Below are positions 3 through 37,516 of a DNA stretch of 64,000 bases, piece after piece (within the stretch, counting starts at the first letter, position 1; each line of letters opens with the position of its first letter). Under the pieces are notes generated by a model, which was not told the origin of the DNA, did no database searches, and saw only the letters and a list, made by a program, of their open reading frames with translations. The stretch is taken from the NCBI GenBank assembly GCA_030447245.1, contig JAUJPG010000011.1:67079-131078 (forward strand), given 5' to 3'. Source of the stretch: Chloroflexota bacterium (GTDB taxonomy: Bacteria; Chloroflexota; UBA6077; JACCZL01). Both the position numbers and the translations under genes were made by a program.

Positions 3-782
3 GCCTGCAAGGAGTGGAACCAGCTTCCCGCCACCCGTGGCGGCGAGGCATCGTTGAGCGGCGACAGCTACGACAACACCGTCGCGCTCAGCGGGACCGA
101 CTGGCGGCACGTAAAGTTCATCGAGCAGTTCAACCCGGACCGTGTTGGCGGTCGGTGGTTGATGATGAGCGACGTCTGCAAGCATTGCGTCCAGGCCGGT
201 TGTCTGGAGGCGTGCCCGACTGGTGCGATCATCCGGACCGAGTTCGATACCGTGGTGATCCAGGCCGATGTCTGCAACGGTTGCCGCTACTGCATCTCAG
301 CCTGCCCGTTCGACGTGATCGGGATCAACGAGGTGACGAATACGGCTCAGAAGTGCACGTTGTGCTACGACCGGTTGCAGGTCGGGATGACGCCGGCCTG
401 TGCTCAGGCGTGCCCGACCGCCTCGATTCAGTTTGGGCCGATCACCAGCCTGCGCGAGCGTGCCGACGCGCGCGTGGCCCAGCTCCAGGCGACCGGTGCC
501 CAGGCGTACGTCTACGGCAAGGAAGACATGCTGGGAGGGCTGAACTCGTTCTACCTGCTGGTCGACAAGCCCTCGGTGTACGGCTTGCCCGAAAATCCGC
601 AACTGCCGAGCAAGCAGGCCGGACTTGGTTGGCTTGCTGGCATGGGCAGCGCCGTGGTCGGCGGGCTACTCGGCGCGCTGTCGTTCCGTAAGCATCGGAT
701 GGACGAGCGGCGGCCAGTTGTCGCCGAGTCCCTGCCGCGGGATAGGCGGGAAGTCGAGACGCGCGACGAGGTGCGGCGATGA
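3..782 (+). CDS. fdnH: Formate dehydrogenase-N type iron-sulfur (beta) subunit, 5' partial (continues upstream of window)
   Basis: Frame 3 reads ACKEWNQ...CKHCVQAGCLEACP...CNGCRYCISACPF...CTLCYDRL...CAQACPT, i.e. four 4Fe-4S Cys clusters plus a C-terminal TM helix. The frame is open to the window edge with no start codon. Confidence 0.85.
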   Translation, partial: ACKEWNQLPATRGGEASLSGDSYDNTVALSGTDWRHVKFIEQFNPDRVGGRWLMMSDVCKHCVQAGCLEACPTGAIIRTEFDTVVIQADVCNGCRYCISACPFDVIGINEVTNTAQKCTLCYDRLQVGMTPACAQACPTASIQFGPITSLRERADARVAQLQATGAQAYVYGKEDMLGGLNSFYLLVDKPSVYGLPENPQLPSKQAGLGWLAGMGSAVVGGLLGALSFRKHRMDERRPVVAESLPRDRREVETRDEVRR

Positions 783-1693
783 ACCCGGCCCTGATCGAGC
801 GAGCTAATGCTGTCCACTGGGAGTGGATGGTGTATCTCGAAATGTGGATTGCGGGCATCGCCGCTGGCGCGTACGCAACGGCCGCGCTGCTCGAGTGGTT
901 CGGACAGGGCCGCTCGCCGATCGCGCGGGCGGCCCACCTGCTCACGATGCCGCTGATGGCGCTCGCAGCGCTGCTGCTGATCGTGGACCTGAGCCGCCCC
1001 GAACGGTTCTTCCACATGATCGTGCAGGTCAAGACCTGGCTGCCGAGTTTCAAACCCTGGTCTCCGATGTCAATCGGATCGTGGTTGGTGCTCGCTTTCC
1101 CAGTCTTCGCGTTCGTCTCATTCGTTGACGCGTTGATCGACCGCGGCATGTTCCGCCTGGGCAGCTGGCGGCGGGAGCGGACACTCCACGGCAGCAGCCT
1201 CGGTCGGATCTGGGCGACGCTCGGAGGACTCCTCGCACTCGGTGTGGGCACCTACTCCGGCGTGCTGCTGAGCGCGTCTGAGTTTCCTGGCTGGGCCGAC
1301 TCCTCGCTGATCGGCGCGCTGTTCGTCGTGACGGCGCTGGCGACCGGCATGGCCGCGCTGCTGGTGATTTCGGGGCTCGGGCGGGCAGTTGCTCCACCCG
1401 ACTTGCGCGACCTCGCCAGGGCGGCGACGTTCATGGTGGTCTGGCAGATGGTGTTGCTTGTGATGTTCGTCATCAGCCTGGGGCCGAGCGGCGCGCGGGT
1501 GTACCTGACGGGCCCTTACCTGCTGGCCTTGATCGGGGCGGCGATCCTCGCCGGCATCGCCCCGATCGCTTTGCTCCGGTTCGGAGCCACCCGGCTGCGA
1601 CCGGCCACGGCGGCGCTCGGCGGCATCACGATGCTGCTCGGAGGGTTCCTTCTGCGGTACGCGATCGTCATGGGACCCCAGGCACATGGCTGA
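779..1693 (+). CDS. Membrane anchor subunit of formate dehydrogenase / NrfD-PsrC family polytopic membrane protein
   Basis: ATG overlaps the fdnH stop (ATGA). The 304-aa product has about 8 predicted TM helices and typical NrfD-like composition, in operon position after the FeS subunit. Confidence 0.7.
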   Translation: MNPALIERANAVHWEWMVYLEMWIAGIAAGAYATAALLEWFGQGRSPIARAAHLLTMPLMALAALLLIVDLSRPERFFHMIVQVKTWLPSFKPWSPMSIGSWLVLAFPVFAFVSFVDALIDRGMFRLGSWRRERTLHGSSLGRIWATLGGLLALGVGTYSGVLLSASEFPGWADSSLIGALFVVTALATGMAALLVISGLGRAVAPPDLRDLARAATFMVVWQMVLLVMFVISLGPSGARVYLTGPYLLALIGAAILAGIAPIALLRFGATRLRPATAALGGITMLLGGFLLRYAIVMGPQAHG

Positions 1694-10751: not shown

Positions 10752-12633
10752 CTACGGCGCCGCTACCGCGGGTTTGACCACCTCCATGTCCGCAACGATG
10801 TCGCCCAGTCCCAGTCGCTCCAACGTCTCCGTGTTCGGGACGCCGCTGCCGGGATCCCAGCCGCGTGCCTCGTAGAACTCGCGGCGCAGGGTGTCCAGGT
10901 CGACGACGACGCCGGCGAGCGGGCCTTTTTCGATCGGCGGGTCGCCGTAGGCCCGGCCCGGGATGTGGTAGTTGACCGGACTGATCCCCTCGCGCAGACT
11001 GAACGCCTGGCGTATCGCGGCCACCCGCTGGCCAATCTCGTCAAGGGATTCGACGCTTGTCGGAACGCCGCTGACGGCCTCGATCGTCTCGGTCCATTCC
11101 GAAAAGGAGACGCGGGTGAAGGCGAACATGCATACACCGGCCGAGAAGACCGCCTGACCGAGATTGTTGATGTGGGCGTTGAGACCGCCTTTGCCGGTGT
11201 AGGTGTACTTCTCGACGCTTGGCGTGTCGATGCCGGGGATCGTGCCGCCATTCTCCTGGACCCAGGCGGCCATCTGGGTGTGCCGACCTGGCGTGGCATC
11301 GGCGGCGTAGATCATGCCCCAGCTCGGCGCGTAGCGCGGGTCGTGGGCGGGCGGCTCCTGGCCGCCGATGTGGACTGCCAATGCCTCGGAGCCAGCGATC
11401 TTTTGCGATGCCCGCATGACGCCGTCAGCCAGGACGTCGCCGATGCCCTCGCGCTTACCGATCTTGTCCGCCAGGGCCATGATCGACGCCGCGTCGCCCC
11501 ACTTCAGCTCAATACCGTCAGTGTCCCTCCTGGTGATCAGGCTCTGCTCGAAGCAGTCGATCGCGAACCCGATGACCGACCCGACCGAGATGGTGTCCAG
11601 CCCGTAGCGATTACACAGATCGTTAGCCTTCATGATCGAGTGGATGTTGTCGTTGAGCAGGTTGTTGCCCCAGAGGGCCGAGGTCTCGTACTCGGGCTTG
11701 TGGGTCTTGCCGACCGGGAACTGGGCATCATCCGTTCGGTAGTGACCTCCGCAGGCGATGTTGCACTTCCAGCAGGCGTACTTCTTGTACTCGTGAGCGA
11801 GCATGTTGTCGTCGCTGATCGCCTCCGCCGAGGGAAAGTCTTCCAACCCGCTGCCGGCCCAGTTGCGGACCGGCGAGTCACCGCCGAACGCCGACGAGGC
11901 GGTGTGATTGATCGTGCCGTACTTGGTGAAGTACTTGACCTTGGGATTGCCGGCCATCTCGCGAATGTATCGTTTGCGGATCTCGTTCGCCCGTGCAGCG
12001 TCATGCATCGGCAGCGCGGCGGTCCCGCGGCAGACGATCGCCTTGAGCTTCTTGGCGCCCATGACCGCGCCCATGCCGGAGCGCGCGGCGATGCGGCCTT
12101 CGTCGTTGACCACGCCGCTCATCAACGAGAGCTTTTCGGCCCCGGTCCCGATGACCGCCGACTGCGACTTCGGATAGCGCTCACGCAGCTGAAGCTCGGT
12201 GTCCAACGCGTCGACGCCCCAGAGGTCGCCGGCGTCGCGCAGCTCGGCCGTACCATCCTCGATGAATAGGTAGACCGGCCGGTCAGCGATGCCCTTGAGG
12301 AACACGCCGTCGTAGCCGGCTGCCTTGAGCATCGGACCCCAGTAGCCTCCGCAATTGGCGTCGCCCCAGCCGCCGGTCAGCGGCGACTTGCCGACGACGG
12401 TCCAGCGGTTGGGCGTGATGGCCGGACTGCCGACCAGCACCCCGGTCGTGAAGCCGAGTGTCGCATCCGAACCGAGCGGGTCTACCCCCGGACTGCTGTC
12501 CGTAGATCACCCGCGCCCCGAGGCCGTAGCCCCCAGGTAGTCACGGTACAGATCGTCGCCCGGCTCCTCGACGCCAATCGCGCCGCTGCTCAGGTCGACG
12601 AACAGTGAGCTTGCCCATGTGGCCGCCGATCAT
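10752..12633 (-). CDS. Aldehyde:ferredoxin oxidoreductase (tungsten AOR family); N-terminal ~80 codons disrupted by 3 single-base indels
   Basis: The 562-aa ORF 10752..12440 has AOR family motifs throughout. Upstream, MGKLTV/VDLSSGAIGVEEPGDDLYRDYLG/GYGLGARVIYGQQSGG/VDPLGSDATLGFTTG is spread over three frames (shifts near 12590, 12520 and 12468). RBS GGAGG lies before the ATG at 12633. Confidence 0.8.
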
Positions 12634-12962
12634 GTGATTGCCTCCAATGAAGTGTGCCACCACGCACGTACGAGTCGTCGCGATGCCGACGACCGCGATC
12701 ATACACACGCTGCGAAGGATTCAAGTAGTCGACAACGGAGCCGCTCGGGGCGTGTCGACGTCCAGTTTTCTCAGGGTAACCGATTTGTTGATCGGTCCCG
12801 CCGCCGCACACCCGCGCAGAATGCGAGGCCGACCTTCGAGGACCTCGCGACCGCGGCGTGGTCGTGGACCTGGTCCGTGTCTGGCGTACGCTCGACCGCC
12901 ACCGCCCACGGTGGAATCGACCAGAGCGGAGCCGTGGTCAGTGGTCAGGCAGGCCGTGAGCG

Positions 12963-31140: not shown

Positions 31141-31443
31141 ACCTGGCCGCAATCGCAGGCGCTCCATCACACGCGACCCCTGCGCAGTTGGCCCGCCAGC
31201 TCAGCAAACCGGCGACCCTAGTAGGCCGGCCCGGTGTTCCCGAGCCGACTTGGCGGGCCGCTAGGCGAGAATCACGCCTTGGTCACCTGGCACCGCGCGC
31301 TCAAGGCCGCCGACCTTCCGAGGATTCGGATGCACGACCTCTGTCACACCAAGGGCACCCTGATGATCGACGAGGACGAGGAGCCGGTGGTCGTCCAGCG
31401 GACGCTGGGGCATGCCCAGCAGTCGGTCACCGCCGACCTCTAG
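31141..31443 (+). pseudogene. Tyrosine recombinase/phage integrase, C-terminal remnant only
   Basis: ...VFPSRLGGPLGENHALVTWHRALKAADLPRIRMHDLCHTKGTLMIDEDEEPVVVQRTLGHAQQSVTADL* carries the HxxR box and LGH box, but the final Tyr box is lost and the upstream frame is broken by stops. Confidence 0.6.
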
Positions 31444-31587: not shown

Positions 31588-31626
31588 CATCTGTTGGCGG
31601 CCGCTTCTGGAGCCGATGGTCAGATT
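31588..31626. repeat. attR-like direct repeat (overlaps the 3' 19 nt of tRNA-Thr)
   Basis: Matches 25440..25477. Confidence 0.75.
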
Positions 31627-31682
31627 CGAACTGACGGCCTGCCGCTTACGAGGAGGCTGCTCTACCCCTGAGCTACATCGGC
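31608..31682 (-). tRNA. tRNA-Thr (anticodon CGT)
   Basis: Reverse complement folds as a cloverleaf: acceptor GCCGATG/CATCGGC, D-arm GCTC-AGGGGTA-GAGC, anticodon loop CTCGTAA, T-arm GTCAG-TTCGAAT-CTGAC, CCA encoded. There is one U-C mismatch in the anticodon stem. Confidence 0.8.
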
Positions 31683-32441: not shown

Positions 32442-32750
32442 TTGACCTGCCGCGAGTGCGAGCAGGGGTTTATCTTCACCCAGGCCGAGCAGGAGCTCTT
32501 CGCCACCCAGGGCTTTGAGCATCCACCGTCGCGTTGTGCTAGCTGTCGGGCGCTGCGTAAGGCCAGACGTGGCGGTGTTAGTGGGGCCAGCCCAGGTGTG
32601 GGCGGTCGCCGCGATCGCGAGATGTTCCCCGCGACCTGCTCCGGATGTGCGCAGGCCACACAGGTGCCGTTTCAGCCACGCGGCGACCGCCCGGTCTACT
32701 GTTCCGATTGCTTCTCGCGCGAGCGGGGCACGACGGCCTCGGCCAGCTAA
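32442..32750 (+). CDS. Zinc-ribbon domain protein (CxxC-x-FxFxxxEQxF...RCxxCR...CxxC...PVYCxxCF type)
   Basis: TTG start. LTCRECEQGFIFTQAEQELFATQGFEHPPSRCASCR...CSGCAQ...PVYCSDCF. Confidence 0.55.
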   Translation: MTCRECEQGFIFTQAEQELFATQGFEHPPSRCASCRALRKARRGGVSGASPGVGGRRDREMFPATCSGCAQATQVPFQPRGDRPVYCSDCFSRERGTTASAS

Positions 32751-32833
32751 GTTGCTCAATCAGGAATCGATGAGGATGAGGAACCGTCCGTCCGCCGCGC
32801 TCGGTATTCTGATCCAGTTTGAAGGGAGCCTAC

Positions 32834-33133
32834 ATGCCCAAGAAGACGAAACGCCGACCGTTCAAGCGCCGTCCGCAGGATCGCTCTGAGGAGATTGCCA
32901 ACCAGCAGCGTCGCATGGAGGCTGCCGCCCGCAGCCTGCTCGGTACGCGCTCGCCGGACCAGCTCCGAGCCGAGATGGTCGACCGCGAGACTCTGCTCGA
33001 CGAGGCGGACCGGGCCGCGCAAATGGAACCAAACCCCGTCAACCTGGCTCGATACCGGAATGCGCGCACAGAGCTGCAGGCAGCTCGGCGGGCGGTCCAG
33101 ATGGTCGATACCGAGGCGCCCAACGGCGTCTGA
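32834..33133 (+). CDS. Hypothetical basic/coiled-coil protein (99 aa)
   Basis: RBS GAAGGGAG then ATG at 32834. MPKKTKRRPFKRRPQDRSEE... Confidence 0.4.
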   Translation: MPKKTKRRPFKRRPQDRSEEIANQQRRMEAAARSLLGTRSPDQLRAEMVDRETLLDEADRAAQMEPNPVNLARYRNARTELQAARRAVQMVDTEAPNGV

Positions 33134-33203: not shown

Positions 33204-34484
33204 TCAGCCCAGACCCCGGATCTCTGCGAGGGCGGCATCGATCTCCTCCGGGCGGTTCACCAATCCGGGCGCAACCCGCGCGTAACTCCTCCCGTACGGG
33301 GTTGTCGTCGCAATGATCCGCCGTTCACGGAGACGCTGCACGACGGCGCGCGGCTCCAGGCCGCGCACGTCGAAGCAGACCATTCCGGCGGAGAGCTCCT
33401 CCGCCATCGGCGTGTGGAGGGTGACGTGGTCCATCGCAGCCACACCCTCCTTGAACTGGCGGTTCAAGCTGCGAATCCGCGTGGTGACGCGGGCCTTGCC
33501 GATGTGCTGATGAAGCTCGAAAGCCTGAGCGAGCGCCCAGCGGTGCTCGAACGAGTGAAAGCCGCCAGGCGTCATCGCGCCGCCAGGCGTGCCGTTGTCA
33601 GTGAACGACGGAATCGTCGGTGCCGCCGCCGACCAGGCCTCGGGTCGGGCCCAGATCAGACCCGTTCCTCGCGGGCCGAAGAGCCACTTATGGCAACCGG
33701 CGACGAAGAAGTCGCAGCCGAGGTCGGTAGGGGCCTGATCCTCAACCCCCAATCCGTGAACACCATCGATGCAGAGCAGCACGCGATCGGCGTCAGACCG
33801 CCCAGCGTTCGCGTCGCCTACGGCGTCGGCCATGCCGCGGACCGGCAGCTTCACGCCGGTGCTCGAGTGGACCCAGGTGGCGGCCACCACCCGCGTCCGC
33901 GGCCCGATCTCCCTCCTCAGGGCATCGACGATCTCCACCTCGGACGCGGTTGCGGGATCGCGGTAGAGCGGGATGGTGCGCAGTGCCGCACCGCTGCGCG
34001 CGGCCTTCGAGCGGAGCGCCTCGTGAGTGGCATAGAAATCATGCTGCGTGGTGAGGATCTCCTGGTCTGCACGCACATCAAGGCCGTTGTACAGGAGGCC
34101 CAGCCCCATCGTGGTGCTGTCAGTTAGGGCGATTGCCGCTGGGCGGCCGCCAAGGTAGGCGGCCGCCTGGCGAAGCACCTCGGCCTCCAGTCGGGGCCCA
34201 TGCTCCTGGAGGTAGTGGACCGGGTTCTCGTCCAGGCCACGCCGATGGGCCTCAATTGCGTTGCGGACCGGCGTCGGATGCGATGCCAGGTACAACCCGC
34301 CCAGGTGGATGTAGTCGCGGGTGAGGGCGAACTGGTCGCGGATGGCATCCCAGTTGTCCAGCCCGGCCTGGCGGCGATCGGGCGCGCCGGCCAGCCCGCT
34401 CTGCTGGGGCAGGCTTGGCAGGGCGCCGGCCGTGACCGCCAGGGCCGAGCGCGCCAGGAACTCGCGGCGGCTCGACCCGCTCAC
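33204..34484 (-). CDS. Class-V aminotransferase-fold PLP enzyme (cysteine desulfurase / isopenicillin-N epimerase-like) with twin-arginine signal peptide
   Basis: The GTG start overlaps the stop of the upstream gene (GTGA). MSGSSRREFLARSALAVTAGAL is a Tat motif; HKWLFGPRGTG is the PLP-lysine region. Confidence 0.8.
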   Translation of the reverse strand: MSGSSRREFLARSALAVTAGALPSLPQQSGLAGAPDRRQAGLDNWDAIRDQFALTRDYIHLGGLYLASHPTPVRNAIEAHRRGLDENPVHYLQEHGPRLEAEVLRQAAAYLGGRPAAIALTDSTTMGLGLLYNGLDVRADQEILTTQHDFYATHEALRSKAARSGAALRTIPLYRDPATASEVEIVDALRREIGPRTRVVAATWVHSSTGVKLPVRGMADAVGDANAGRSDADRVLLCIDGVHGLGVEDQAPTDLGCDFFVAGCHKWLFGPRGTGLIWARPEAWSAAAPTIPSFTDNGTPGGAMTPGGFHSFEHRWALAQAFELHQHIGKARVTTRIRSLNRQFKEGVAAMDHVTLHTPMAEELSAGMVCFDVRGLEPRAVVQRLRERRIIATTTPYGRSYARVAPGLVNRPEEIDAALAEIRGLG

Positions 34485-34855
34485 GTTGAGAGTCCGCTCG
34501 GGCCGGCGGTCGCCTCGTCGCGGAATAGGAAGCGCCCGAAGAATGGCCGGTTGTTAGCCACGAGGCGGTAGCCGATCTCGACGGCCCAGATCAGCGGCGG
34601 AGTCGAGAGGACGGCCGTGGTGCGTCGCCAGCCGGCCTGCTCGAGCGCGCAGAGCGCTGCTCGGCCGGCGCGGAGGACACGGCCTTCGGGAGTGATCACG
34701 TGCACCGCCCGCGCGCATGCTCGTCTGAGACGCGGCGTCATCGGCGGCGACGGCGCATCTTGATAGGGTACGAACCTCAGCCGCCCAGCCCGATCTTGTC
34801 GCCTGACCCAGACGACGCAGCGTCGTCAAAACGCTCACGCACCGTCCCAGAACAC
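34481..34855 (-). CDS. DUF393/DCC-family thiol-disulfide oxidoreductase with both CxxC cysteines encoded by in-frame TGA (candidate UxxU selenoprotein)
   Basis: Minus-strand frame reads (GTG)FWDGA-TGA-AF-TGA-RRCVVWVRRQDRAGRLRFVPYQDAPSPPMTPRLRR...LIWAVEIGYRLVANNRPFFG. It is collinear with the DUF393 consensus (lfYDGeCplCnrfvrfl.rrDr.g.lrF.plQs...), and the two TGAs (34835..34837 and 34826..34828 on the forward strand) fall exactly at the CxxC positions. The annotated-style ORF 34481..34741 is only the C-terminal 86 aa. Confidence 0.55.
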
Positions 34856-35024
34856 CCAGTAGCGCGGTTCGCCACGCCCGGCCGTCGATCAACGCTGTCG
34901 CTCCTCGGTCGCGGCGCGTGCTGCCGCGGACAGATGGTATCGCATCCTTCTCACACGTGTTTGTGGCTGATGGGAGTCACTATCCCGGCCAGGCCATGCC
35001 GGCCGGCCCGGGTTGGCCGGGCGA

Positions 35025-35759
35025 TCAGGGATGCGCTGGGCGATCAGTTGGAGCCGGGCGCGACGCCCGAGCGAACCGATAGCCCAGCCCACGTTCGGTG
35101 AGGATGAAGCGCGGCCGATCCGGGTCATCCTCGAGCTTGCTCCGCAGGCGACTGACGTACACCTTCAGGTAGTCGGACTGTTCGCGATATTCCTCCCCCC
35201 ACACTCGGGCCAGCAGTGCCTCGCGCGGCAGGACGTGACCCGCGTTCCGCACAAGGTGGTAGAGCACCCGGTACTCCAGCGTGGTCAATGGAACCGGAGC
35301 CCCGGACTTGGTGACCTCGTGACTGTCGAAGTTGATCGTGAGGTTGCCCAAGGTGAATGAGGGCGTAGCGCGGATCGGCGGTGCGAGCTCTGAGCGTCGC
35401 AGGATGGCCTTGATCCTGGCGAGCAACTCGAGCGGACTGAAAGGCTTGGTGACGTAGTCGTCGGCGCCAATCTCCAGACCGCGTACCTTGTCAAGCTCCT
35501 CGCCTCGCGCGGTGAGCATCAACACCGGGGTGTCAGAGACTGCGCGGATCCGGCGCAGCACTTCAAAGCCGTCCAGCCTCGGCAATCCCACGTCGAGCAG
35601 AACGACATCGGGCTGCTGCTCAAAAAAGACCTCTAGGCCCTGCTCCCCGTCGGTCGCGGTGATCACCTCGGCGGCCTGCCACTGGAGCTGCATGCCGAGG
35701 CCAAGGGCTTCGAGCAGGTCGTGGTCGTCGTCGACGATCAGGATCTTCATCGGCCACGA
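35025..35759 (-). CDS. OmpR/PhoB-family response regulator
   Basis: MKILIVDDDHDLLEAL...LDVGLPRLDGFEVLRRIR...winged-helix C-terminus (VYVSRLRSKLEDDP...GYRF). Confidence 0.85.
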   Translation of the reverse strand, partial: SWPMKILIVDDDHDLLEALGLGMQLQWQAAEVITATDGEQGLEVFFEQQPDVVLLDVGLPRLDGFEVLRRIRAVSDTPVLMLTARGEELDKVRGLEIGADDYVTKPFSPLELLARIKAILRRSELAPPIRATPSFTLGNLTINFDSHEVTKSGAPVPLTTLEYRVLYHLVRNAGHVLPREALLARVWGEEYREQSDYLKVYVSRLRSKLEDDPDRPRFILTERGLGYRFARASRPAPTDRPAHP

Positions 35760-37516
35760 GCGTCTGGGTCGCTCCCGGCCGCGCGCGACTGCCCCGAGGC
35801 CTCGGGAAGAACCACGAAGAACGTGGCGCCGCGCCCGGTCCGACTGTCCAGCCCGACGCGGCCGCCGTGCAGCTCGGCAAGCGCGTGGGCGATCGGCAGT
35901 CCCAGGCCGGTGCCTGTCGTCCGGCGCGTCGGCTCGTTGTCGAGCCGATAGAATCGCTCGAAGATCGCCCGCTGCTCGGAGGGCGGGATGCCCGGCCCGT
36001 CGTCGTGCACGGACAGGCGGACTGAACCCGCGGGCGCCGGTCCGACGCGGAGGAGGATGGTACTTCCGGAGGGTCCGTATCTGACGGCGTTGGTGAGCAG
36101 ATTGAGCACGATCTGCTCGAGCCGTCGACGATCGCCGTCGACGGTGCACGGCCGGGAGGAGCTGCTCAGCCGGATAGTCTGGCCACGCTCGTCGGCCAAC
36201 GGGCGGACCGTTGCGACCGCGTCCTCGGCAATGTGGCGCAGGTCCAGCAGGTCGCGATGTAGCTCCAGCCGACCGCCTTCAAGGCGGACCAGGTCCAGCA
36301 GGTCGGTCACAAGGGCCGTCAGCCGATCGCTCGAGCGATCCACATTTCGGAGTAGCCGGCGGTGGGTCTCCGAAACGTCGACCGGTGCCGTCGACAGGAG
36401 GACCTCGGCCGAGGCCTTGATCGACGCCAACGGAGTGCGCAGCTCGTGGGAGACGAGCGACAGGAATTGCGACTTGAGCCGCTCCAGCTCCTTGAGCTGC
36501 TCGCGCTCGCTCACGGCCTCCTCGTAGAGCATCGCATTCTCGAGCGCCACCGCCGCCTGGGCGGCGAACACGCCGAGCAGGCGGGCATCCTGGCGGGTGA
36601 ACAGGCCCTGGGTCTTGTTCGCCACGCGGAGCACGCCGAGTACGCGGGTTGCGCGGAGTGGGACCATCAGCAAGGCTCGTTCGCCGAGCACACGCGCGGT
36701 CTCGCTTCCATCGCGTCGATCCGCCGGCGCGTCGTTGGTGATGTACGGGTGCGCGGTTTCGAAGACCTGGACGCACACGCCGCCCTGGGCGAGTGGAAAG
36801 CTGAGTCGCCGTACCTGGTTCGGACGGTAACCGTGCGGAGACGGGCGTGCGACGAGTGACCCCGCCTCGAGCGTCAGCACGGCCGCGCGGTCAGCCCCAA
36901 GCAAGTGGGCTGCCTGACGGGCGACCTGGGCGCCCACCGCGTCCAGCTCGGCCAGCGCGGCAATCGCTTCGCTGGCCTCGGCGAGGCGCGCCACGTCAGC
37001 CAGTCGATCCTGCAGGGCGTCAAACAGCCGGGCGTTGTCGACCGCCATGGCGATAGACCCCGCGAAGGCCCTCATCAATGCATCCGCGGTCTGCGGAAAT
37101 GGGCGCGCCCGGGCCCGCAGGGCGGTCAGGGTGCCCAACCTCCGGCCACGCAGGAGGAGCGGGATGGTCAGTCGGGTGGACAGTGCGTCGGCCGCCTGGC
37201 CAGCCCAGGGGCGGCGAACGTGCAGCACCTCGACTCCGCCCGGGCCACCCAGGCGGATTGTCGCGGCGTCGGCCCTGACCGCATTGGCAACTAGCTCGGC
37301 GGAGCGCCGCAGCACACCGTCAAGGTCGTCAGCCGCGGCGATGATCCGTGGCATCCGGCCGAGGTGCCGGGCGGCCGCTGTGCCCAAACTGGCTACAGCC
37401 GGCGGTGCGTCGGCTTGCTCGGCTTCGCGGGCAATCACCGCGTCTCGCTCGATCATCTCTCGGCCCCCGCTTGCGGTCCCTCGTCCGGTATACCCCGCGT
37501 GAAGGCCGGCCGCCAC
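35747..37516 (-). CDS. GAF-domain sensor histidine kinase
   Basis: GAF-like N-terminal regions, HisKA (LSLVSHELRTPL) and HATPase_c (GTGLGLPIAHALAELHGG). It overlaps the RR start. Start codon uncertain (alternative at MIERD). Confidence 0.8.
   Translation of the reverse strand: MAAGLHAGYTGRGTASGGREMIERDAVIAREAEQADAPPAVASLGTAAARHLGRMPRIIAAADDLDGVLRRSAELVANAVRADAATIRLGGPGGVEVLHVRRPWAGQAADALSTRLTIPLLLRGRRLGTLTALRARARPFPQTADALMRAFAGSIAMAVDNARLFDALQDRLADVARLAEASEAIAALAELDAVGAQVARQAAHLLGADRAAVLTLEAGSLVARPSPHGYRPNQVRRLSFPLAQGGVCVQVFETAHPYITNDAPADRRDGSETARVLGERALLMVPLRATRVLGVLRVANKTQGLFTRQDARLLGVFAAQAAVALENAMLYEEAVSEREQLKELERLKSQFLSLVSHELRTPLASIKASAEVLLSTAPVDVSETHRRLLRNVDRSSDRLTALVTDLLDLVRLEGGRLELHRDLLDLRHIAEDAVATVRPLADERGQTIRLSSSSRPCTVDGDRRRLEQIVLNLLTNAVRYGPSGSTILLRVGPAPAGSVRLSVHDDGPGIPPSEQRAIFERFYRLDNEPTRRTTGTGLGLPIAHALAELHGGRVGLDSRTGRGATFFVVLPEASGQSRAAGSDPDARGR

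What the first reader, a model, noticed from the sequence alone, without database searches (positions are those of the whole stretch)
33204..35760. Operon context: response regulator, then the UGA-containing DCC protein, translationally coupled (GTGA) to a Tat-exported class-V PLP enzyme
The candidate selenoprotein's stop overlaps the GTG start of a 426-aa class-V aminotransferase-fold enzyme (cysteine desulfurase / selenocysteine lyase / IPN-epimerase superfamily). That enzyme carries a clear twin-arginine signal (SRREFLARSALAVTAGAL), which is unusual because PLP enzymes of this fold are normally cytoplasmic.

A cytoplasmic Sec/Cys redox protein coupled to an exported sulfur or selenium-handling PLP enzyme suggests an undescribed envelope-directed S/Se trafficking or detoxification module. 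The GAF-kinase/OmpR-type two-component pair lies directly upstream on the same strand, with a 170-nt gap.
Basis: inference. Interest (0 to 1): 0.6.

Follow-up and report, generated by a model that had tools for sequence, protein, structure and literature searches.

The report
Selenoprotein gene beside exported PvdN-like enzyme
The gene layout is as described, but the exported vitamin-B6 enzyme belongs to the known PvdN family, its pairing with the two-selenocysteine DCC protein is confined to one narrow lineage, and nothing points to a sulfur or selenium trafficking module.

Summary
A GAF histidine kinase and an OmpR-type regulator come first. After a 169-nt gap comes a 124-codon DCC/DUF393 ORF with two in-frame TGAs. 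Its TGA stop overlaps (GTGA) the GTG start of a 426-aa class-V PLP enzyme carrying an SRREFL twin-arginine motif.

The functional interpretation is not supported. The PLP enzyme is a full-length homologue of PvdN (PDB 5I90, E 2e-97, 41.7% identity). PvdN is the textbook Tat-exported PLP enzyme, and it converts a glutamate side chain to succinamide, with no S/Se chemistry. The twin-arginine motif is conserved in at least 107 of the 120 nearest homologues, and the family spans many phyla. None of 91 loci encoding PLP homologues at 71% identity or less has a DCC gene nearby. Only three close relatives keep the pair, with 69-112-nt gaps instead of the overlap.

The DCC gene is a well-supported selenoprotein. 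Both TGAs sit at the Cys positions of DGxCxxC. Sixteen distinct sequences carry UxxC or UxxU forms, each followed by a covarying hairpin. Two recent selenoproteome reviews do not mention this family.

Best reading: two independently widespread genes sit side by side in one lineage, and no dedicated module is needed to explain it.

The parts
35747..37516 (-). Sensor histidine kinase, 589 aa, with GAF, HisKA and HATPase_c domains. No secretion or membrane feature was noted.
   Evidence: Pfam GAF_2 1.9e-22, HisKA 1.9e-18, HATPase_c 5.9e-30.
35025..35756 (-). OmpR-type response regulator, 243 aa. Its ATG overlaps the kinase 3' end by 10 nt.
   Evidence: Pfam Response_reg 1e-28 and Trans_reg_C 8.8e-25. 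Present upstream in L087. In L114 only a C-terminal fragment remains, separated from the DCC gene by an inserted gene. Absent in L115.
34856..35024 (-). 169-nt gap between the regulator and the DCC gene. It could hold a promoter.
   Evidence: Poorly conserved against L087. No sigma-70-like or terminator-like consensus was found.
34481..34855 (-). DCC/DUF393 thiol-disulfide oxidoreductase ORF of 124 codons, read as a selenoprotein with a U-A-F-U redox motif.
   Evidence: Translation. PF04134 63.2 bits with Cys substituted. Homologues carry CxxC, UxxC or UxxU at the same columns.
34835..34837 (-). In-frame UGA no. 1 (codon 7), at the first Cys position of DGxCxxC.
   Evidence: TGA in all 16 distinct Sec-form sequences and TGC/TGT in the three Cys-form loci L092, L093 and L108.
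34826..34828 (-). In-frame UGA no. 2 (codon 10), at the second Cys position.
   Evidence: TGA in 10 distinct sequences (window, L087, L101, L102, L104-L107, L114, L115) and in the short L110 fragment. TGC in the UxxC loci.
34798..34816 (-). SECIS-like hairpin GUCGUC-UGGGUCA-GGCGAC. It starts 18 nt after UGA no. 1 and 9 nt after UGA no. 2, and has GGU in the apical loop.
   Evidence: 95.2% of cells are paired across 14 sequences, with two covarying pairs. 0 of 500 shuffles reach the covariation score, and slid registers pair in 18-46% of cells. RNAalifold gives the same stem. The 3' arm Arg codon is CGA in 11 and CGG in 4 of 16 sequences, and the common CGC appears once, although CGA is only 10% of Arg codons in the window.
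34481..34484 (-). GTGA overlap of the DCC stop and the PLP-enzyme start.
   Evidence: Read directly. Replaced by gaps of 100, 112 and 69 nt in L087, L114 and L115.
33204..34484 (-). PvdN-family class-V PLP enzyme, 426 aa, predicted to be Tat-exported.
   Evidence: NF051467 PvdN 432.6 bits over residues 5-420 (cutoff 650). PDB 5I90 E 2.1e-97. 41.7% identity to PvdN. PF00266.
34422..34484 (-). Twin-arginine signal region (residues 1-21: MSGSS-RR-EFLARSALAVTAGA).
   Evidence: TIGR01409 17.3 bits against cutoff 16.7. Aligns to the PvdN signal DRRTFLKQAGI. RR motif conserved in at least 107 of 120 homologues.
33687..33689 (-). Codon of Lys266 in AGCHKWLFGPRGTG, the predicted PLP-binding lysine.
   Evidence: At least 95% conserved in 118 family members and aligned with the HKW of PvdN. 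That this is the Schiff-base lysine rests on general knowledge of class-V enzymes.
32442..33133 (+). Two convergent downstream genes: a treble-clef zinc-finger protein (32442..32750) and a 104-aa protein with no family (32819..33133).
   Evidence: Pfam zf_Tbcl and zf_Tbcl_2. The same pair in the same orientation lies downstream in L087.

Best explanation
This is a lineage-specific juxtaposition of two genes that are each widespread on their own. It sits downstream of a soluble GAF-kinase/OmpR-regulator pair.

**Gene 1, the DCC protein.** It is a cytoplasmic DCC/DUF393 thioredoxin-like oxidoreductase in a selenocysteine form.
- Shown: both TGAs sit at the Cys positions of DGxCxxC, with a conserved hairpin just downstream.
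- Inferred: translation starts at GTG 34855. The two UGAs at codons 7 and 10 are read as Sec by SelB/tRNA-Sec recruited to the hairpin at 34816-34798. This gives a U-x-x-U redox centre.

**Gene 2, the PLP enzyme.** It is a PvdN-family enzyme.
- Shown: homology to PvdN over the full length, a conserved Lys266 and a conserved twin-arginine motif.
- Inferred, by analogy with PvdN: it binds PLP at Lys266 and folds in the cytoplasm. It is then exported by Tat through its SRREFL signal. Outside the membrane it acts on a substrate with a free alpha-amino group, in a reaction related to the Glu-to-succinamide decarboxylation of PvdN rather than to desulfuration.

**Relationship between the two.**
- Shown: the 4-nt GTGA overlap in this genome, and no terminator-like consensus between the genes.
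- Inferred: the two genes are co-transcribed and may be translationally coupled here.

The pairing is confined to one narrow clade and the overlap to this genome. No dedicated S/Se trafficking module is needed to explain it.
For: **PLP enzyme.**
- PvdN model NF051467 gives 432.6 bits over the full length. sufS gives 67 bits (cutoff 475) and SclA 21.7 bits (cutoff 525).
- PDB 5I90 gives E 2e-97 including the signal region. The next best hit is C-DES at 1.5e-19. SufS matches cover only residues ~68-290.
- Identity to PvdN is 41.7% and Lys266 is conserved.
- More than 7,900 homologues were found, across Chloroflexota, Gaiellales, Nitrospira, Acidobacteria, Gemmatimonadota and Myxococcota.
- The RR motif is present in 107 of 120 homologues.
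- No gene partner is conserved across 85 loci.

**Synteny.**
- No DCC hit in L001-L086, L088-L091, or L112-L113.
- The pair is present only in L087, L114 and L115, with gaps of 100, 112 and 69 nt.
- Sec-DCC genes elsewhere sit beside glycogen enzymes, ABC permeases, Ldh_2, and an SDR with malate synthase.

**Sec reading.**
- 16 distinct sequences carry UxxC or UxxU, and W-(V/L)-x-W-D-G is conserved upstream of the first UGA.
- The hairpin shows covariation.
- Codon choice in the hairpin's 3' arm favours pairing.
- 41 of the 120 nearest DCC homologues are gene calls truncated just after the motif.
- TGA is the normal stop in 23 of 37 genes, with no other internal TGA.

**PvdN biology.** Tat export with bound PLP and the Glu-to-succinamide reaction are described in PMC6206403.
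Against: - The pair survives in four diverged sequences (PLP 74-77% identical). It stays intact in L114, where a gene has been inserted just upstream of the DCC gene, and in L115, which lacks the regulator. That is mild evidence for linkage.
- This PLP subfamily differs from PvdN at conserved positions: C238, C257, C264, C370 and T395-P396-Y397. It also scores below the PvdN equivalog cutoff. Its reaction is therefore unknown, and C-S or C-Se lyase chemistry without a catalytic Cys, as in C-DES, cannot be excluded.
- No Sec machinery or tRNA-Sec lies in the window, and the rest of the genome could not be read.
- The window's DCC start leaves only 6 codons before the first Sec, shorter than in relatives.
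- Single-sequence folding of the hairpin region is no better than shuffles.
Confidence: 0.72

Rival explanations
1. The pair is a true functional unit in this clade. The cytoplasmic UxxU DCC protein would serve the PvdN-like enzyme before export, for example by keeping its four conserved cysteines reduced until Tat transport. Alternatively, the GTGA overlap could make translation of the enzyme depend on read-through of two Sec codons, and therefore on selenium supply.
For: Adjacency on the same strand in the window, L087, L114 and L115. It survives an upstream insertion in L114 and loss of the regulator in L115. The subfamily has conserved C238, C257, C264 and C370, of which only C257 has a Cys counterpart in PvdN. 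The genes overlap by 4 nt in the window.
Against: There is no adjacency in the 91 loci encoding more distant PLP homologues or in the 19 metagenome DCC loci, although those PLP homologues keep the same conserved cysteines. The overlap is absent from all three relatives. Synteny at ~75% protein identity is expected from shared ancestry alone.
Confidence: 0.13
2. The exported PLP enzyme would be a cysteine/selenocysteine lyase or desulfurase acting on S or Se compounds in the envelope, working together with the Sec protein.
For: The protein belongs to the class-V fold superfamily, with weak matches to sufS, EgtE, C-DES and SclA. C-S lyases of this fold such as C-DES and Egt2 need no catalytic Cys (general knowledge). 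JGI's automatic names include 'selenocysteine lyase/cysteine desulfurase'.
Against: All S/Se-enzyme models fall far below their cutoffs, while PvdN matches over the full length. The position that aligns by motif with the SufS catalytic Cys is T-P-Y, and V-D-R in PvdN (motif reasoning). No sulfur, selenium, Fe-S assembly or transporter genes lie nearby. Synteny is not conserved.
Confidence: 0.06
3. The DCC ORF is a decayed pseudogene and the TGAs are genuine stops. The PLP gene would then be a stand-alone gene behind a dead remnant.
For: The gene caller kept only the 86-aa C-terminal fragment (P0126). The N-terminus before the first TGA is very short in the window. No Sec machinery lies in the window.
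Against: TGA recurs at exactly the Cys codons in 16 diverged sequences. The protein sequence is conserved upstream of, between and downstream of the TGAs. A covarying hairpin sits at a fixed distance.
Confidence: 0.03

Closest known systems
PvdN of Pseudomonas aeruginosa/fluorescens (PDB 5I90; NCBIfam NF051467)
   Same: Full-length homology (E 2e-97, 41.7% identity), class-V PLP fold, conserved HK(W) lysine motif, and an N-terminal twin-arginine signal that aligns with the PvdN signal. PvdN is exported folded, with PLP bound, by Tat (PMC6206403).
   Different: It scores 432.6 bits, below the 650-bit equivalog cutoff. No pvdM, pvdO, NRPS or other pyoverdine genes lie nearby. The host is a high-GC soil bacterium, most likely Chloroflexota. 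Conserved C238, C264, C370 and T395-P396-Y397 are not shared with PvdN. The substrate is unknown.
PtaA, periplasmic transaminase A
   Same: It is a second documented PLP enzyme exported by Tat with its cofactor. It is also found in species that do not make pyoverdine (PMC6206403).
   Different: It is described as an ordinary transaminase. It was not compared with the window protein by sequence here.
SufS/CsdB cysteine desulfurase-selenocysteine lyase and C-DES C-S lyase
   Same: Same fold superfamily. The PLP-binding core aligns weakly (E 1e-19 to 1e-10).
   Different: Model scores are far below the cutoffs. The C-terminal catalytic-Cys region of SufS is not aligned. These enzymes are cytoplasmic and lack a Tat signal.
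DCC1/YuxK (DUF393, PF04134) thiol-disulfide oxidoreductases
   Same: The domain matches over its whole length, and the DGxCxxC motif sits in the same position.
   Different: One or both Cys are replaced by Sec (UxxC or UxxU forms). No paper in the searched library links this family to selenocysteine.
Known UxxC/UxxU bacterial selenoproteins, e.g. the Prx-like thiol:disulfide oxidoreductase and the UxxU metal-binding protein
   Same: Sec replaces Cys in a CxxC redox motif, double-Sec forms exist, and a stem-loop lies just downstream of the UGA (PMC13188914, PMC9312934).
   Different: The protein family is different (PF04134). Here a single hairpin lies 18 nt after the first UGA and 9 nt after the second.

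Membership tests
PvdN (NCBIfam NF051467 equivalog) | Score at or above the curated equivalog cutoff (650 bits) | tested here: not met
   432.6 bits, E 1.3e-129, residues 5-420 against profile 3-419/425. It is a homologue, not an equivalog.
PvdN (NCBIfam NF051467 equivalog) | Location in a pvdMNO or pyoverdine gene cluster | tested here: not met
   Neighbours are a two-component pair, the DCC gene, a zinc-finger protein, a ferredoxin and a PAP2 protein. No dipeptidase-like, FGE-like or NRPS genes were found.
PvdN-like Tat-exported class-V PLP enzymes (wider family) | Full-length homology to PvdN with the PLP lysine conserved | tested here: met
   5I90 E 2.1e-97 over residues 5-419. K266 is at least 95% conserved.
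Tat substrate | Twin-arginine motif (S/T-R-R-x-F-L) followed by a hydrophobic stretch at the N-terminus | tested here: met
   S5-R-R-E-F-L10 followed by ARSALAVTAGAL. TIGR01409 17.3 bits against cutoff 16.7. The motif is conserved in at least 107 of 120 homologues.
Tat substrate | Tat-dependent export shown experimentally | not testable with these tools
   Shown only for PvdN itself (PMC6206403).
Cysteine desulfurase / selenocysteine lyase (SufS, IscS, NifS, SclA) | Score at or above the family cutoff, with the catalytic-Cys region aligned | tested here: not met
   sufS 67.1 bits (cutoff 475), SclA 21.7 (525), NifS 17.4 (531), IscS 16.4 (304). SufS structures align only to residues ~68-290.
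DCC1-like / DUF393 (PF04134) | Pfam domain above the gathering score, with the DGxCxxC motif | tested here: met
   63.2 bits against 27.8 with both TGAs read as Cys, covering profile positions 1-109 of 113.
Bacterial selenoprotein | In-frame UGA aligned with Cys in homologues, with coding conservation on both sides | tested here: met
   CxxC (L092, L093, L108), UxxC (8 loci) and UxxU (window, L087, L101, L102, L104-L107, L110, L114, L115) occupy the same columns. W-(V/L)-x-W-D-G is conserved upstream.
Bacterial selenoprotein | SECIS-type stem-loop shortly downstream of the UGA, with G/U in the apical loop | tested here: met
   A 6-8 bp stem with a loop containing GGU. 95.2% of cells paired, 2 covarying pairs, 0 of 500 shuffles reaching the score. 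SelB binding itself was not tested.
Bacterial selenoprotein | selA, selB, selD and tRNA-Sec present in the genome | not testable with these tools
   None are in the 64-kb window. The source contig could not be retrieved.
Conserved operon or module (DCC + PvdN-like) | Adjacency conserved across distantly related genomes | tested here: not met
   The pair is present in 3 close relatives only (L087, L114, L115). It is absent from the 91 loci encoding PLP homologues at 71% identity or less and from the 19 metagenome DCC loci.

The most novel reading that the evidence does not exclude
In this Chloroflexota-like clade, the two-selenocysteine DCC protein and the Tat-exported PvdN-like enzyme could form a real functional pair. 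In this genome, the GTGA overlap would then make synthesis of the exported enzyme depend on successful decoding of two Sec codons. That would link selenium supply, or a selenol-based redox check, to an extracytoplasmic PLP reaction. Separately and more securely, the DCC/DUF393 UxxC/UxxU proteins would be a selenoprotein family missing from current catalogues.
Probability: 0.1. Interest if true: 0.6.

Novelty: new variant of a known kind. Interest (0 to 1): 0.38.

Why it matters
The operon itself is of limited consequence. It corrects the idea that a Tat signal on a class-V PLP enzyme marks something undescribed, and it shows that the hypothesised S/Se module lacks comparative support.

Two by-products are more useful.

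1. **A likely uncatalogued selenoprotein family.** DCC/DUF393 appears to exist in Cys-Cys, Sec-Cys and Sec-Sec forms with a compact SECIS-like hairpin. About a third of the nearest homologues look like Sec forms that gene callers have truncated. The family is absent from the 2022 and 2026 selenoproteome reviews. It would add a selenoprotein family found in soil metagenomes, and it offers a natural series for studying stepwise Cys-to-Sec replacement.

2. **A large uncharacterised family of exported PLP enzymes.** PvdN-like Tat-exported PLP enzymes are very widespread outside pyoverdine producers (Nitrospira, Gaiellales, Chloroflexota and others). They have no conserved gene partner, so extracytoplasmic PLP chemistry of unknown substrate is common.

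Tried and rejected
- **Source contig.** Exact look-ups of the window's PLP protein found nothing. The DCC fragment P0126 led only to a 971-bp Logan contig. The rest of the genome, and therefore the Sec machinery, could not be inspected.
- **Single-sequence folding.** Folding the region after the UGAs gave z-scores of 0.10 and -0.95, uninformative in GC-rich RNA. The hairpin was supported only by the comparative alignment.
- **Rfam.** At gathering thresholds it found only three tRNAs, with no tRNA-Sec or SECIS model hit.
- **Promoter and terminator scan.** The consensus scan found nothing between the regulator and the PLP gene. This neither proves nor disproves co-transcription.
- **Neighbour clustering.** Clustering around 85 PLP loci and 21 DCC loci found only lineage-specific neighbours.
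- **Composition.** There is no compositional anomaly around the cluster.
- **Primary PvdN papers.** PMC5104919 and PMC4854569 are not held. PvdN facts come from the review PMC6206403.
- **Rejected: global TGA recoding.** TGA ends 23 of 37 genes, and no other gene has an internal TGA.
- **Rejected: pseudogene.** See the rival explanations.
- **Rejected: cysteine desulfurase or IPN epimerase identity.** Model scores are far below the cutoffs.
- **Rejected: the overlapping +1-frame ORFs.** These are 34554..34892 in the window and the 224-aa call in L087. They have no family, and conservation follows the DCC frame.

Full report
**1. What is in the sequence**

All relevant genes are on the minus strand.
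- A 589-aa histidine kinase lies at 35747..37516, with GAF, HisKA and HATPase_c domains.
- A 243-aa OmpR-type response regulator lies at 35025..35756 (Response_reg + Trans_reg_C). Its ATG overlaps the kinase 3' end by 10 nt.
- A 169-nt gap follows (34856..35024).
- An ORF in the DCC/DUF393 frame then runs from GTG 34855 to TGA 34481. It is interrupted by TGA at codons 7 and 10.
- Its last bases...ACG TGA, overlap the GTG (34484) that opens a 426-aa ORF ending at 33204.
- That ORF begins MSGSSRREFLARSALAVTAGAL and matches Pfam Aminotran_5 (E 9e-28).

An earlier count gave the DCC start as 34857. correct it to 34855.

**2. The PLP enzyme is a PvdN-family protein**

- NCBIfam's best model is NF051467, 'pyoverdine-tailoring periplasmic protein PvdN'. 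It scores 432.6 bits (E 1e-129) over residues 5-420, against profile positions 3-419 of 425. This is below the 650-bit equivalog cutoff.
- Models for S/Se enzymes score far lower: sufS 67 bits (cutoff 475), EgtE 51, SclA 21.7 (cutoff 525), NifS 17 and IscS 16.
- Against solved structures, PvdN 5I90 matches at E 2e-97 from residue 5 to 419. The match includes the signal region (SRREFLARSAL against DRRTFLKQAGI).
- The next hit is the C-S lyase C-DES at E 1.5e-19. SufS/CsdB chains align only across residues ~68-290.
- Identity to PvdN is 41.7%, and the HKW lysine (K266) is conserved.

According to the review PMC6206403, PvdN is a PLP enzyme exported as a folded protein by the Tat system. [quoted passage not shown] It converts the glutamate side chain of pyoverdine to succinamide. 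A second Tat-exported PLP enzyme, PtaA, is also known. A Tat signal on this fold is therefore rare but precedented, and the characterised relative has no sulfur or selenium chemistry.

**3. The family is large, Tat-tagged throughout, and has no fixed gene partner**

- Species-representative genomes carrying close relatives include Chloroflexota, Dehalococcoidia, Gemmatimonadota, Gaiellales, Nitrospira, Acidobacteria, Myxococcota and Thermomicrobiales.
- Of the 120 nearest proteins, 107 match a strict xRRx[hydrophobic][hydrophobic] pattern. Most read DRRxFLVRTGL. Several of the remaining proteins also carry RR or are truncated calls.
- Clustering the ORFs around 85 loci found only lineage-specific neighbours, for example glycine dehydrogenase in Nitrospira.
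- The subfamily differs from PvdN at well-conserved positions: C238 (95%), C264 (86%, next to the His-Lys), C370 (98%) and T395-P396-Y397. C257 (81%) is shared with PvdN.
- By motif reasoning, T395-P396-Y397 occupies the place of the SufS catalytic-Cys loop. PvdN has V-D-R there.

The reaction of this subfamily is therefore unknown. It is not a desulfurase by any test available here.

**4.

- tblastn with the DCC protein found no homologue in the flanks fetched (up to 6 kb per side) for the 80 genome loci L007-L086 and the 6 loci of P0011.
- It also found none in L088-L091, L112 or L113, where the PLP protein is 68-71% identical.
- Conversely, none of the 19 DCC loci recovered from metagenomes has a PvdN-like gene. 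Their neighbours are glycogen enzymes, ABC permeases, a malate/lactate dehydrogenase, and an SDR with malate synthase.
- The pair is found only in close relatives: L087 (PLP 77%), L115 (74%) and L114 (75% over the part present). L111 is a near-identical copy of the window.
- In those three relatives the DCC gene ends earlier, and the genes are separated by 100, 69 and 112 nt.
- The regulator is upstream in L087. In L114 it is separated from the DCC gene by an inserted 836-aa hybrid kinase. It is absent in L115.

The adjacency is real, but it is restricted to one clade in which shared ancestry alone explains it. The GTGA overlap is unique to this genome. It arose because the DCC ORF here runs 10 codons further than in L087.

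**5. The DCC gene is a convincing selenoprotein**

- With Cys substituted for the TGAs, the protein matches PF04134 at 63.2 bits. The TGAs fall on the two Cys of DGxCxxC.
- Related loci show all three states at the same columns:
  - CxxC in L092, L093 and L108.
  - UxxC in L094-L100 and L103.
  - UxxU in the window, L087, L101, L102, L104-L107, L110, L114 and L115.
- The residues before the first TGA (W-V/L-x-W-D-G) are conserved, with third-position changes. The frame is therefore under selection on both sides of the TGAs.
- Directly downstream lies a hairpin, GUCGYC-UGGGUCA-GRCGAC (window 34816..34798). It starts 18 nt after UGA no. 1 and 9 nt after UGA no. 2.
- Across 14 Sec-form sequences, 95.2% of cells are paired. 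Two pairs covary: U-A to C-G in three sequences, and C-G to U-A in six. No shuffle out of 500 reaches the covariation score, and slid registers pair in only 18-46% of cells.
- RNAalifold independently gives the same stem with a GGU loop.
- The 3' arm Arg codon is CGA in 11 and CGG in 4 of 16 sequences, and CGC in only one. Codon usage in the window is CGC 45% and CGA 10%.
- Two of the three Cys-form loci lack the hairpin (read from the sequences).
- TGA is the ordinary stop codon here: 23 of 37 genes end in TGA, and no other gene has an internal TGA.
- Among the 120 nearest DCC homologues, 78 have an intact DGxCxxC. Another 41 are gene calls that begin just after the motif. That is the pattern expected if Sec forms are common and gene callers mis-call them.

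Caveats:
- No Sec machinery is in the window.
- The window's copy has only six codons before the first Sec.
- Single-sequence folding is not significant.

**6. Literature**

- No paper in the library holds both 'DUF393' and 'selenocysteine'.
- None holds 'selenoprotein' together with DUF393, YuxK, 'DCC family' or 'DCC1-like'.
- The 2026 and 2022 reviews that tabulate prokaryotic selenoprotein families do not contain DCC or DUF393, and the 2026 review's main text also lacks PF04134. They do list other UxxU proteins.
- NCBIfam has no model that hits the DCC protein.

The Sec forms of this family therefore appear to be uncatalogued. A mention in supplementary tables cannot be excluded.

**7. Mechanism (steps marked shown or inferred)**

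- Shown: gene order, the overlaps, the domain identities, the conserved Tat motif, the conserved PLP lysine, the TGA-for-Cys pattern, and the conserved hairpin.
- Inferred: the kinase/regulator pair may control a promoter in the 169-nt gap.
- Inferred: SelB and Sec-tRNA decode both UGAs using the one hairpin, giving a U-x-x-U selenol/diselenide centre in a cytoplasmic oxidoreductase.
- Inferred: ribosomes terminating at UGA 34483-34481 can restart at the overlapping GTG.
- Inferred: the enzyme binds PLP, folds, is exported by Tat, and acts on an amino compound outside the membrane, by analogy with PvdN.
- A functional link between the two proteins is possible but unsupported.

**8. Verdict**

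The S/Se module is not supported.
- The PLP enzyme is a new member of a known kind.
- The DCC selenoprotein is a new variant of a known kind, and it is the more interesting element.
- Overall interest is moderate to low for the operon claim itself.

Noticed in passing
window 34798-34837 (-); loci L087, L094-L107, L110, L114, L115: The DCC/DUF393 subfamily exists in CxxC, UxxC and UxxU forms, with a conserved, covarying hairpin (loop GGU) after the UGAs. About a third of the nearest database homologues are gene calls truncated just after the motif. The family is not mentioned in the 2022 or 2026 selenoproteome reviews.
   Followed up: yes
window 33204-34484 (-), residues 238, 257, 264, 370, 395-397: This PvdN-like subfamily has conserved C238, C257, C264 and C370 (81-98%) and a T-P-Y triplet. 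Of these, only C257 has the same residue in PvdN. This suggests a different substrate or reaction from PvdN.
   Followed up: partly
window 10752-12740 (-), in-frame TGA at 12507-12509: The aldehyde:ferredoxin oxidoreductase gene lacks its first ~60 domain residues in the called ORF. The missing N-terminus continues upstream across an in-frame TGA. By recalled AFOR consensus the TGA does not appear to sit at a Cys position, and the local sequence diverges from that consensus, so a nonsense mutation, frameshift or assembly error is more likely than Sec.
   Followed up: partly
window 31234-31443 (+) and 31608-31682 (-): A 69-aa C-terminal fragment of a tyrosine recombinase (Phage_integrase, E 2.4e-07) lies beside tRNA-Thr(CGT). 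It looks like the remnant of an integrated element. The region from about 28.2 to 32.4 kb has few convincing ORFs.
   Followed up: no
window 54-1693 (+): Fer4_11 and NrfD genes at the window edge are the electron-transfer and membrane subunits of a molybdopterin oxidoreductase. The catalytic subunit would lie just outside the window.
   Followed up: no
L114 220-2730 (-): In one relative, an 836-aa hybrid kinase (GAF, PAS, HATPase_c and receiver domains) is inserted between the regulator remnant and the DCC gene. The DCC-PLP pair stays intact.
   Followed up: partly
window 32442-33133 (+); L087 3119-3861 (-): A treble-clef zinc-finger protein and a ~104-aa protein with no family lie convergent to the PLP gene. 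They are conserved in the same arrangement in L087.
   Followed up: no
window 34554-34892 (-); L087 1087-1761 (+): Long ORFs in another frame overlap the DCC gene, and one was called as a 224-aa gene in L087. They have no family match and are typical spurious ORFs of GC-rich DNA.
   Followed up: yes
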